NCBI RefSeq assembly: GCF_000026545.1
Contig: NC_011601.1
Direction: 5' to 3' (one strand)
Length of the DNA stretch: 64,000 bases
Source: Escherichia coli O127:H6 str. E2348/69
GTDB taxonomy: Bacteria > Pseudomonadota > Gammaproteobacteria > Enterobacterales > Enterobacteriaceae
This document shows positions 49,301 to 52,145 of the stretch, in pieces. Made by a program: the position numbers. Numbering within the stretch: the stretch's first letter is position 1; every line of letters starts with the position of its first letter.

Positions 49301-52145
49301 CTCGCGGTCAGAGACGCCAAGCGTGCTAAAGAGTACGCGTTCAACGCCCGTCGTACCAGGAAGAGGTATATCATTAATCAGCCGCGCCAGCCCGCTACCT
49401 AAGGGACGCGCCAGCACCATTAATACCAGTAAAAACGTGGCAATCAGTAAGAACCCTTGCGCAGCCATCAGAACGCCTCCGCATTGATCAGGGCATAAAC
49501 CAGATAACCCAGTAATAAAAACACCAGCAACACGCCGGTTATCACGCCTGCACTCACAGTGCACCTCCAGTGGCCTAAAAGTGATACCGGAAGGGTAGAG
49601 TTCTGGCTGCAAAGATTTCGCAAAAATCTGCGGGCGTGGTGTAAAAAAAGTATAAAAATGGCAAAAGCCATGGTTTAACTAATGTTTAGTATTAATTTAA
49701 CTTTTATGTAACTTAATTACACGGTGAATGTAAATAAACCATCAATAAGCAAAAATAAGTGGTCGGATGAGTAGTAAAATTACACAAACAGCGGTACTAT
49801 TTTCATCAGATAAACGAATTCATTTTTCCGGTGCTATTCACCGGGTAGATACAAAAGGGGGAGAAAAGTATGGAACTCTACAAAGAATATCCTGCATGGC
49901 TTATCTTTTTACGCCGTACTTGTGCGGTTGCAGCGGGCGTTCTGGCGCTGCCTTTCATGCTTTTCTGGAAAGACCGCGCCCGCTTTTATAGCTACCTGCA
50001 CCGCGTCTGGTCGAAAACCAGCGATAAACCGGTGTGGATGGATCAGGCCGAAAAGGCAACCGGTGATTTTTATTGATTGCTAAACATGACGTTCAAAGAA
50101 AACCGCCAGCGGAGACGCTGGCGATTTTCTTTTTTCGGCGTCTACACTTACTCCTGTAAACCGTTCAGGAGCAGTAATGAATCAACAACTTTTTGATGAC
50201 AGCACCCTTATCCGCATTTTTGCTTTGCATGAGTTACACAATCTCAAAGATCGAGGACTAACGCGCGGGGCGCTTCTCGATTATCACAGCCGCTATAAAC
50301 TCGTCTTTCTGGCGCATTCTCAGCCGGAGTACCGCAAACTTGGCCCGTTTGTGGCTGATATTCACCGGTGGCAAAGTCTGGATGACTATTACAACCAGTA
50401 CCGCCAACGCGTAATTGTTTTGCTTTCTCACCCTGCCAACCGGCGTGATCATACTAACGTTTTGATGCACGTTCAGGGATATTTTCGCCCACATATTGAT
50501 TCCACAGAACGCCAGCAGCTGGCAGCGCTTATCGACAGTTATCGCCGTGGCGAGCAACCGCTTCTTGCGCCGCTGATGCGTATCAAACACTATATGGCGC
50601 TTTATCCTGACGCCTGGCTTTCAGGGCAGCGTTATTTCGAACTTTGGCCGCGTGTGATTAACTTGCGCCATGCAGGAGTTTTATGACTACCCATCTGGTC
50701 TGGTTTCGCCAGGATTTACGTCAGCACGATAATCTCGCGCTGGCTGCCGCCTGCCGCAATTCGTCTGCGCGCGTGCTGGCGTTGTATATCGCTACACCAC
50801 GCCAGTGGGCGGTGCATAATGTGTCGCCGCGTCAGGCTGAACTTATCAATACACAACTTAATGCGCTGCAAAACGCGCTGGCGGAAAAAGGCATTCCTTT
50901 ATTGTTCCGCGAAGTGGATGACTTTGCCGCCAGCGTCGAAATAGTTAAACAGGTGTGCGCGGAAAATCGTGTTACCCATCTGTTTTATAACTATCAGTAT
51001 GAGGTGAATGAGCGGGCGCGGGATGTGCAGGCTGAGAGGGCGCTGCGTAACGTGGTGTGTGAAGGATTTGACGACGGCGTGATCCTGCCGCCGGGGGCGG
51101 TGATGACTGGCAATCATGAGATGTACAAAGTCTTTACGCCATTTAAAAACGCCTGGCTTAAACGGCTGCGAGAAGGGATGCCGGAGTGCGTCGCTGCGCC
51201 AAAAGTACGTAGTAGCGGATCGATAGATCCCGCGCCATCCATTACGCTGAATTATCCTCGTCAGCCTTTCGATACTGCGCATTTCCCGGTGGAAGAGAAA
51301 GCGGCGATTGCGCAATTACGCCAGTTTTGCCAGAACGGTGCCGGAGAGTATGAGCAACAGCGAGATTTCCCTGCGGTAGAAGGCACCAGCCGTTTGTCCG
51401 CCAGCCTGGCAACGGGCGGGTTATCGCCTCGCCAGTGTTTGCATCGCCTGTTGGCGGAACAGCCGCAGGCGCTGGACGGTGGGGCCGGTAGTATCTGGCT
51501 TAATGAGCTGATCTGGCGCGAGTTTTACCGTCATCTGATAACGTATTACCCCTCGCTGTGTAAACATCGTCCGTTTATTGTCTGGACCGACCGCGTGCAG
51601 TGGCAGAGCAATTCCGCGCATTTAAAGGCCTGGCAGGAAGGCAAAACGGGATACCCGATTGTTGATGCTGCCATGCGTCAGCTTAACAGCACCGGCTGGA
51701 TGCATAACCGGCTACGGATGATTACAGCCAGTTTTTTGGTGAAAGATTTATTGATCGACTGGCGCGAAGGTGAGCGATATTTCATGTCGCAGCTGATTGA
51801 TGGTGATTTGGCAGCCAATAACGGTGGCTGGCAGTGGGCCGCTTCAACCGGAACCGATGCAGCGCCGTATTTTCGTATTTTTAACCCGACAACCCAGGGC
51901 GAGAAATTTGACCGTGAGGGCGAGTTTATCCGCCAGTGGCTACCGGAACTGCGCGATGTGCCAGGGAAAGTGGTGCATGAGCCGTGGAAGTGGGCGCAGA
52001 AAGCAGGTGTGACGCTGGATTATCCGCAACCGATAGTTGATCACAAAGAGGCAAGGCTGCGAACGCTGGCAGCGTACGAAGAAGCGAGGAAAGGAGCCTG
52101 ATAAAACGCAGCGAGCGTTTTATCAGGCATGGTGCTGGCTTATTA

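What the first reader, a model, noticed from the sequence alone, without database searches (positions are those of the whole stretch)
49466..49560. kdpF uses a GTG start and its stop overlaps the kdpA start (ATGA)
The 29-codon kdpF frame begins at GTG (49555-49557) preceded by GGAGG, and its TGA stop shares bases with the kdpA ATG. Small-protein genes with non-ATG starts are routinely missed; the overlap implies translational coupling within kdpFABC.
Basis: seen in the sequence. Interest (0 to 1): 0.2.

Follow-up and report, generated by a model that had tools for sequence, protein, structure and literature searches.

The report
Known kdpF gene, GTG start
This is the well-known 29-codon kdpF gene of the E. 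coli potassium pump operon. It starts at GTG exactly as reference genomes annotate it, and its stop touches the kdpA start by one base (TGATG, not ATGA), so the finding is correct in substance but ordinary.

Summary
The window is E. coli, 100% identical to strain E2348/69 over this stretch. On the minus strand a 29-codon frame runs from GTG (49557-49555) to TGA (49470-49468). It encodes [29 protein letters not shown], which is identical to KdpF in solved KdpFABC structures. GGAGG(TG) lies 6 nt upstream of the GTG. RefSeq annotates the same 90-nt gene in E2348/69 and in K-12 (b4513), which also has GTG.

One detail is wrong. The junction is TGATG, sharing one base (A, 49468), not ATGA. The operon's real 4-nt overlap is GTGA at kdpD/kdpE.

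Comparison supports the start. In 22 Enterobacterales the start column is GTG (17) or ATG (5). The other in-frame starts are not conserved. No complete E. coli genome has ATG there in this sequence context.

Comparison also supports coupling, though it does not prove it. In 74-78 of 80 species the kdpF stop lies within 4 nt of the kdpA start. Codons 26-27 (GCG GAG) never vary at the nucleotide level and form a ribosome-binding site for kdpA inside kdpF. That site could equally allow independent kdpA initiation.

Verdict: already known, low interest.

The parts
49651..49656 (-). KdpE half-site S1 (TTTATA)
   Evidence: The sequence is read. The half-site sequences, and their position at -72 to -50 from the transcription start, come from PMC3264566.
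49640..49645 (-). KdpE half-site S2 (TTTACA), 5 bp after S1
   Evidence: PMC3264566.
49592..49597 (-). Probable -10 hexamer TACCCT of the kdpFABC promoter
   Evidence: The TA...T positions are invariant in 22 Enterobacterales (T44, A45, T49 of alignment A1). The position fits the KdpE site at -72 to -50. This is an inference; the consensus scan found no sigma-70 match, as expected for an activator-dependent promoter.
49585..49588 (-). Inferred transcription start, giving a 5' UTR of about 28-31 nt
   Evidence: Inferred from the -10 position and the published KdpE footprint coordinates. It was not mapped here.
49562..49568 (-). Ribosome-binding site (Shine-Dalgarno) of kdpF, GGAGGTG; the GGAGG core lies 6 nt before the start
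   Evidence: GGAGG with 6-nt spacing is present in 18 of the 22 aligned Enterobacterales.
49555..49557 (-). kdpF start codon GTG
   Evidence: It is the annotated start in E2348/69 and K-12. The homologous column is GTG in 17 and ATG in 5 species. The ATG variant of the 51-mer matches no E. coli genome exactly.
49468..49557 (-). kdpF coding sequence (29 codons plus TGA)
   Evidence: NF011332 scores 76.7 bits over 1-29 of 29 positions, and TIGR02115 and PF09604 score above their cutoffs. The product is identical to chain D of solved KdpFABC complexes.
49477..49482 (-). kdpF codons 26-27 (GCG GAG), invariant at the nucleotide level; part of the kdpA ribosome-binding site
   Evidence: GCG in 22 of 22 and GAG in 22 of 22 species, while every other codon with an invariant amino acid varies synonymously.
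49476..49480 (-). Ribosome-binding site GGAGG for kdpA, inside kdpF, 7 nt before the kdpA ATG
   Evidence: A core of this motif lies at -16 to -4 of the kdpA start in 77 of 78 species with a tight junction.
49466..49470 (-). Junction TGATG: kdpF stop and kdpA start share A at 49468
   Evidence: Distribution of junction types across 80 species is.
47795..49468 (-). kdpA coding sequence (557 aa)
45724..47772 (-). kdpB coding sequence; 22-nt gap after kdpA
45143..45715 (-). kdpC coding sequence; 8-nt gap after kdpB
42466..45150 (-). kdpD coding sequence; overlaps kdpC by 8 nt
41792..42469 (-). kdpE coding sequence; GTG start in a GTGA 4-nt overlap with the kdpD stop

Best explanation
The feature is kdpF, the first gene of the E. 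coli kdpFABC(DE) operon. It encodes the 29-residue single-helix subunit of the KdpFABC potassium pump.

Shown:
- The frame, its GTG start, the strong ribosome-binding site (GGAGGTG) upstream, and the one-base stop/start overlap with kdpA (TGATG).
- All of these match the reference annotation.

Inferred:
- Transcription starts about 28-31 nt upstream of the GTG, from the KdpE-activated promoter.
- The GTG is then the first in-frame start codon on the mRNA and is read as formyl-methionine.

Probable but not demonstrated: a ribosome finishing kdpF terminates directly on the kdpA start. A second ribosome-binding site (GGAGG, inside kdpF codons 26-28) sits 7 nt upstream of that start. kdpA translation is therefore probably coupled to kdpF translation, either by re-initiation or by keeping the site open. 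The same site may also recruit ribosomes on its own.
For: Identity and start:
- The window is 100% identical to E2348/69 and matches 5,423 of 5,426 E. coli genomes; kdpF is annotated under the match in all 30 rows listed.
- RefSeq places the kdpF coding sequence at the same 90 nt in E2348/69 and in K-12 b4513. K-12 also reads GTG after GGAGGTGCACT.
- The product is identical to the KdpF chains of 25 PDB entries.
- NF011332 scores 76.7 bits over positions 1-29 of 29.
- In 22 Enterobacterales the start column is GTG (17) or ATG (5), and 18 of them have GGAGG 6 nt upstream.
- The 51-mer from UTR through start is at least 99% identical in 4,917 of 5,405 E. coli genomes. The ATG variant reaches that level in none.
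- The calculated mass of the formyl-Met 29-mer is 3099.7 Da. This matches the roughly 3100 Da formylated peptide that I recall from Gassel et al. 1999; that paper is not held, so the figure is from memory.

Upstream in-frame starts:
- The in-frame ATG (49671) and TTG lie at or upstream of the KdpE site and promoter.
- They are interrupted by stop codons in several species.

Coupling:
- Across 80 species the junction is a 1-nt overlap in 34, a 4-nt overlap in 18, abutting in 6, a 1-nt gap in 15 and a 2-nt gap in 1.
- Codons 26-27 are GCG GAG in 22 of 22 species, despite synonymous variation at every other conserved residue.
- A ribosome-binding core precedes kdpA in 77 of 78 loci.
Against: - No direct start-site mapping or N-terminal data could be read here. 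The primary papers (Gassel 1999, Huang 2017, Sweet 2021) are not held.
- No ribosome-profiling paper or held supplement mentions kdpF.
- PDB sequences are depositor-supplied, so they are not independent proof of the N-terminus.
- The broad family models (TIGR02115, PF09604) begin only at residue 6, so the first five residues are not family-wide.
- Against coupling: kdpA has its own strong, conserved ribosome-binding site.
- The junction geometry is not fixed; it varies from a 4-nt overlap to a 2-nt gap.
- Pantoea stewartii keeps an intact kdpA start behind a frameshifted kdpF.
- The motif GGAGG-N6-GTG alone is no more frequent than chance.
Confidence: 0.9

Rival explanations
1. kdpA initiates independently on its own ribosome-binding site. 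The one-base overlap reflects only operon compaction, so there is no functional coupling between kdpF and kdpA translation.
For: - GGAGG lies 7 nt before the kdpA ATG, and GCGGAG is invariant in 22 of 22 species.
- The junction type varies among species: 1-nt and 4-nt overlaps, abutting, and 1-2 nt gaps. No particular overlap is required.
- Pantoea stewartii has a frameshifted kdpF, ending 33 nt before an intact kdpA start that still has its ribosome-binding site.
- No paper linking kdpF and kdpA with translational coupling was found.
Against: - The kdpF stop lies within 4 nt of a kdpA start codon in 74-78 of 80 species spanning several proteobacterial orders. This is tighter than the other junctions of the same operon (22-nt and 8-nt gaps).
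- An embedded ribosome-binding site plus an adjacent stop is the classical arrangement of coupled pairs.
- The two readings are not mutually exclusive.
Confidence: 0.35
2. Translation really starts at the internal in-frame GTG (codon 5, 49545-49543), giving a 25-residue peptide that matches the family core.
For: The TIGR02115 and PF09604 profiles align only from residue 6. An in-frame GTG exists at codon 5.
Against: - No ribosome-binding motif precedes it.
- Codon 5 is GTG in only 9 of 22 Enterobacterales; the rest are GTA, ATC, TTG, TTT, TCC or CTG.
- The enterobacterial equivalog model NF011332 covers residues 1-29.
- The solved-structure chains begin MSAG.
- Its formylated mass would be 2785 Da, not about 3100 Da (the literature value is from memory).
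Confidence: 0.03
3. The gene is the longer 67-codon mechanical ORF, starting at ATG 49671-49669.
For: The frame is open from that ATG to the kdpF stop.
Against: - The ATG lies upstream of the KdpE half-sites (49656-49640). These sit at -72 to -50 of the transcription start, so the ATG is outside the kdp mRNA.
- It has no ribosome-binding site.
- The extension is broken by stop codons in Citrobacter FP75, Kluyvera, Yersinia and others.
- The family models match only residues 40-67 of it.
- The nearest upstream gene, ybfA, is divergent, so no read-through transcript is expected.
Confidence: 0.01

Closest known systems
E. coli K-12 kdpF (b4513, YP_588443.1), subunit F of the KdpFABC P-type ATPase
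   Same: The protein sequence is identical. It has the same GTG start after GGAGGTGCACT, the same 90-nt length and the same TGATG junction with kdpA.
   Different: Within kdpF there is a single synonymous difference: codon 9 is GTG in the window and GTA in K-12. The window matches the E2348/69 allele exactly.
kdpF of other Enterobacterales (NCBIfam NF011332 / NF011334 equivalogs)
   Same: All are 29 codons with the start in the same alignment column, a ribosome-binding site upstream, GCGGAG near the 3' end and a stop at the kdpA start.
   Different: - Erwinia, Hafnia, Morganella, Edwardsiella and Mangrovibacter use ATG.
- Yersinia and Rahnella have TAAATG (abutting), and Providencia has a 1-nt gap.
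- Seven of the 22 end in TAA, as does a second E. coli (L025) that is not in the alignment.
kdpF-kdpA junctions with a true ATGA/GTGA 4-nt overlap (for example Caballeronia, Roseateles and Accumulibacter loci)
   Same: The gene pair is the same, kdpA translation is equally tightly juxtaposed, and a ribosome-binding site is embedded in kdpF.
   Different: The window does not. In the window that motif occurs only at kdpD/kdpE, as GTGA.
Classical translationally coupled operon pairs in E. coli with stop/start overlap (for example trpE-trpD, trpB-trpA, and the galT-galK junction; from general knowledge)
   Same: The stop of the upstream gene overlaps or abuts the downstream start, and the downstream ribosome-binding site lies inside the upstream coding region.
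   Different: For kdpF-kdpA, dependence of downstream translation on upstream translation has not been shown. No such report was found in the library.

Membership tests
KdpF (K+-transporting ATPase subunit F; NF011332, TIGR02115, PF09604) | Sequence matches the curated family models above their cutoffs | tested here: met
   NF011332 scores 76.7 bits (cutoff 56) over 1-29 of 29. TIGR02115 scores 34 bits (cutoff 26.85). PF09604 scores 28.9 bits (cutoff 21.2).
KdpF (K+-transporting ATPase subunit F; NF011332, TIGR02115, PF09604) | Encoded immediately upstream of kdpA, at the head of a kdpFABC operon | tested here: met
   kdpA (557 aa) starts on the last base of the kdpF stop, and kdpB, kdpC, kdpD and kdpE follow. 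The same arrangement is found in 80 species.
KdpF (K+-transporting ATPase subunit F; NF011332, TIGR02115, PF09604) | The peptide is a physical subunit of the KdpFABC complex | tested here: met
   The sequence is identical to chain D of solved KdpFABC complexes: 6hra and 13 further entries with 29 residues, and 5mrw and 10 further entries with residues 1-27. Association itself is taken from those entries and was not measured here.
Genes initiated at a non-ATG (GTG) codon | GTG preceded by a ribosome-binding site at functional spacing, and first in-frame start on the mRNA | tested here: met
   GGAGGTG ends 4 nt before the GTG, with its GGAGG core 6 nt before. There is no ATG, GTG or TTG in frame between the inferred transcription start (about 49585-49588) and 49557. 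The transcription start is inferred, not mapped.
Genes initiated at a non-ATG (GTG) codon | The homologous position is a start codon in relatives, with ATG/GTG interchange | tested here: met
   GTG in 17 and ATG in 5 of 22 Enterobacterales in the same column, with TG invariant.
Genes initiated at a non-ATG (GTG) codon | The protein N-terminus is (formyl-)Met encoded by that codon | not testable with these tools
   The calculated formyl-Met 29-mer mass is 3099.7 Da. The published value of about 3100 Da (Gassel et al. 1999) is recalled from memory, because the paper is not held.
Translationally coupled gene pair (termination-reinitiation) | Upstream stop overlaps or lies within a few nt of the downstream start | tested here: met
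   TGATG, a 1-nt overlap.
Translationally coupled gene pair (termination-reinitiation) | The arrangement is conserved beyond close relatives | tested here: met
   In 74 of 80 loci the junction lies between a 4-nt overlap and a 2-nt gap, using alignment-guided kdpA starts. In 78 of 80 there is an ATG or GTG within 3 nt of the kdpF stop.
Translationally coupled gene pair (termination-reinitiation) | Downstream translation depends on translation of the upstream gene | not testable with these tools
   This needs kdpF nonsense or start mutants with a kdpA reporter. No report was found.

The most novel reading that the evidence does not exclude
The nucleotide-invariant GCGGAG in kdpF codons 26-27, together with the near-universal stop-on-start junction, may mean that kdpF's 3' end is dual-coded. 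On this reading it encodes both the conserved Ala-Glu of the peptide and an obligatory re-initiation site. KdpA synthesis would then be tied, ribosome for ribosome, to KdpF synthesis, so the small subunit is always available when the large channel subunit inserts into the membrane.
Probability: 0.3. Interest if true: 0.2.

Novelty: already known. Interest (0 to 1): 0.05.

Why it matters
It matters little beyond quality control. kdpF has been known as a 29-residue subunit since 1999 (cited in PMC10723866) and is annotated with this GTG start in the reference genomes. The useful outcomes are modest:
- The alternative starts are excluded by comparative evidence.
- The tight kdpF/kdpA junction and the ribosome-binding site embedded in kdpF are conserved across 80 species. 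This makes translational coupling a reasonable, testable but unsurprising hypothesis.

Tried and rejected
- Primary literature: Gassel 1999 (PubMed id 10608856), Huang 2017 (PMC5495170) and Sweet 2021 (PMC8307911) are not held. A search for kdpF with 'formylated' and 'mass spectrometry' found nothing.
- Ribosome profiling: no start-site profiling paper mentions kdpF in its text, and the Weaver et al. preprint has no supplement held. kdpF is induced only at low K+, so standard datasets would probably be silent anyway (my inference).
- Translational coupling literature: none found.
- Leader RNA: Rfam gave no relevant hit in 49300-50000, only a chance mir-498 match at E = 0.28. The fold of the leader plus kdpF is no more stable than shuffles (z = -0.42). 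RNAalifold found no consensus structure across 22 leaders. I rejected a regulatory leader structure.
- Promoter scan: no sigma-70 consensus match. This is uninformative for a KdpE-dependent promoter.
- A terminator-like hairpin inside kdpF (49539-49523) is within the number the shuffles give by chance (2 sites found, 0.8 expected), and I dismissed it.
- Motif-level chance test: GGAGG-N6-GTG is found once against 1.19 expected, so the motif alone carries no weight.
- The 67-codon ORF and the internal GTG/TTG starts were considered and rejected (see rival explanations).

Full report
**What is in the sequence.** On the minus strand the window reads ...ggccactGGAGGtgcactGTGagtgcaggc...aatgcGGAGGcgttcTGATGgctgcg....
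- The GTG occupies 49557-49555.
- The frame runs for 29 sense codons to TGA at 49470-49468 and translates to (V/M)[28 protein letters not shown].
- GGAGG lies at 49568-49564, 6 nt before the GTG. With the next two bases it forms GGAGGTG, a seven-base complement to the 16S rRNA tail.
- The kdpA ATG is at 49468-49466 and opens a 557-residue KdpA.

The stated overlap motif is not. The stop and start form TGATG and share a single A (49468), not the four-base ATGA.

**Identity and annotation.**
- The 501-base stretch is 100% identical to E. coli E2348/69 and matches 5,423 of 5,426 complete E. coli genomes. All 30 rows listed, sampled across the full ranking, have kdpF and kdpA annotated under the match.
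- In E2348/69 and in K-12 MG1655 (b4513) the kdpF coding sequence is the same 90 nt and ends on the base where kdpA begins.
- K-12 also reads GGAGGTGCACTGTG and TGATG.
- The peptide is identical to the KdpF chains of 25 PDB entries of the KdpFABC complex.
- It scores 76.7 bits over positions 1-29 of 29 of the NCBIfam equivalog NF011332. It also scores above cutoff for TIGR02115 and PF09604.
- A review in the library records that Gassel et al. discovered the 29-residue KdpF in 1999 and co-purified it with the complex (PMC10723866).

This is therefore an already known, already annotated gene.

**Is GTG really the start?** The mechanical ORF is longer: 67 codons from an ATG at 49671. That ATG lies upstream of the two KdpE half-sites, TTTATA (49656-49651) and TTTACA (49645-49640). 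These sit at -72 to -50 from the transcription start (PMC3264566).

A -10-like TACCCT (49597-49592) has its TA...T positions invariant in 22 Enterobacterales. Together these place the transcription start near 49585-49588. That is an inference, not a mapping. On this placement the ATG and an in-frame TTG are outside the mRNA. No in-frame start codon lies between the inferred 5' end and the GTG.

I fetched 80 species loci with KdpA as query. A KdpF-like ORF lies directly upstream of kdpA in all 79 that have enough upstream DNA; one locus has only 27 nt there. In 22 aligned Enterobacterales:
- The start column is GTG in 17 species and ATG in 5 (Erwinia, Hafnia, Morganella, Edwardsiella, Mangrovibacter).
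- GGAGG lies 6 nt upstream in 18 of them.
- The internal codon-5 GTG is present in only 9 of 22 and has no ribosome-binding site.
- The upstream extension is broken by stop codons in several species.

Within E. coli, the 51-mer spanning UTR, ribosome-binding site and start is at least 99% identical in 4,917 of 5,405 matching genomes. The same 51-mer with ATG in place of GTG reaches that level in none.

The calculated mass of the formyl-Met 29-mer is 3099.7 Da. This agrees with the roughly 3100 Da formylated species that I recall from the abstract of Gassel et al. 1999. I could not read that paper here, so this point rests on memory.

Across all 80 loci a heuristic start call gives ATG 51, GTG 27 and TTG 1. 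GTG is thus a lineage habit of Enterobacterales rather than a family-wide feature. A GTG start is in any case common in E. coli (general knowledge).

**The junction and coupling.** Using alignment-guided kdpA starts, the kdpF stop/kdpA start relation in 80 species is as follows:

| Junction type | Species |
|---|---|
| 1-nt overlap (TGATG or TAATG) | 34 |
| 4-nt overlap (ATGA or GTGA) | 18 |
| Abutting | 6 |
| 1-nt gap | 15 |
| 2-nt gap | 1 |
| Larger apparent gaps | 5 |

- Most of the five larger gaps look like mis-assigned kdpA starts.
- An ATG or GTG lies within 3 nt of the kdpF stop in 78 of 80 loci, and 77 of those 78 have a ribosome-binding core at -16 to -4.
- In the 22 Enterobacterales, kdpF codons 26 and 27 are GCG and GAG in every species.
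- Every other codon with an invariant amino acid (L15, L16, Y18, L19, Y21, L23) varies synonymously.
- This nucleotide-level constraint marks GCGGAG(G) (49482-49476) as the kdpA ribosome-binding site embedded in kdpF.

It is not proof, for four reasons:
- The embedded site could recruit ribosomes independently.
- The exact geometry is not fixed across species.
- Pantoea stewartii keeps an intact kdpA start behind a frameshifted kdpF.
- I found no experimental report on coupling.

I put coupling at a little better than even odds.

**Operon context.** The other annotated junctions are:
- kdpA/kdpB: 22-nt gap.
- kdpB/kdpC: 8-nt gap.
- kdpC/kdpD: 8-nt overlap.
- kdpD/kdpE: 4-nt overlap, GTGA (42469-42466), with kdpE also starting at GTG.

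**No hidden extra feature.** Rfam finds nothing relevant. The leader plus kdpF RNA folds no better than shuffles. There is no consensus leader structure across species. The bare motif GGAGG-N6-GTG occurs no more often than chance, so the case for the gene rests on homology, conservation and the solved complexes.

**Verdict.**
The GTG start is right and matches the reference. Coupling is plausible and conserved but untested. The 'routinely missed' claim does not apply to this gene.
- Novelty: already known. Interest: very low.

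Noticed in passing
window 42466-42469 (minus strand): The kdpD stop and the kdpE start form GTGA, a true 4-nt overlap, and kdpE also starts with GTG.
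   Followed up: yes
window 45143-45150 (minus strand): kdpC and kdpD overlap by 8 nt (cttgATGAATAAcg). kdpA/kdpB and kdpB/kdpC instead have gaps of 22 and 8 nt.
   Followed up: partly
window 49477-49482 (minus strand); alignment A1: kdpF codons 26-27 (GCG GAG) are identical at the nucleotide level in 22 of 22 Enterobacterales. All other invariant residues vary synonymously. This is a dual-use stretch: peptide residues plus the kdpA ribosome-binding site.
   Followed up: yes
L010 1114-1201 (Pantoea stewartii CCUG 26359): kdpF appears frameshifted. GTG to TGA spans 88 nt and there is a premature TAG at 1166-1168, yet the GCGGAGG site and the TGATG junction with kdpA are intact. It is either a pseudogene or an assembly error.
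   Followed up: partly
E. coli genome collection: One E. coli genome carries a second copy of the kdpF/kdpA 5' region on a plasmid (5,425 chromosomal places and 1 plasmid place).
   Followed up: no
window about 41454-41558 (minus strand): The speFL leader peptide and the start of speF are annotated just downstream of kdpE in the identical E2348/69 record. speFL is another small ORF in this window.
   Followed up: no
window 49562-49575 and the homologous leaders in L009, L011-L014, L022 and L023: Many enterobacterial kdpF leaders have CACC(N3-5)GGAGGTG, a possible 4-5 bp mini-hairpin that would pair part of the ribosome-binding site with an upstream CACC. RNAalifold finds no consensus structure, so this may mean nothing.
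   Followed up: partly
L025 (E. coli SCPM-O-B-8794), junction at 1199-1203: This E. coli lineage has TAATG instead of TGATG. The stop codon changed but the one-base overlap is kept.
   Followed up: no
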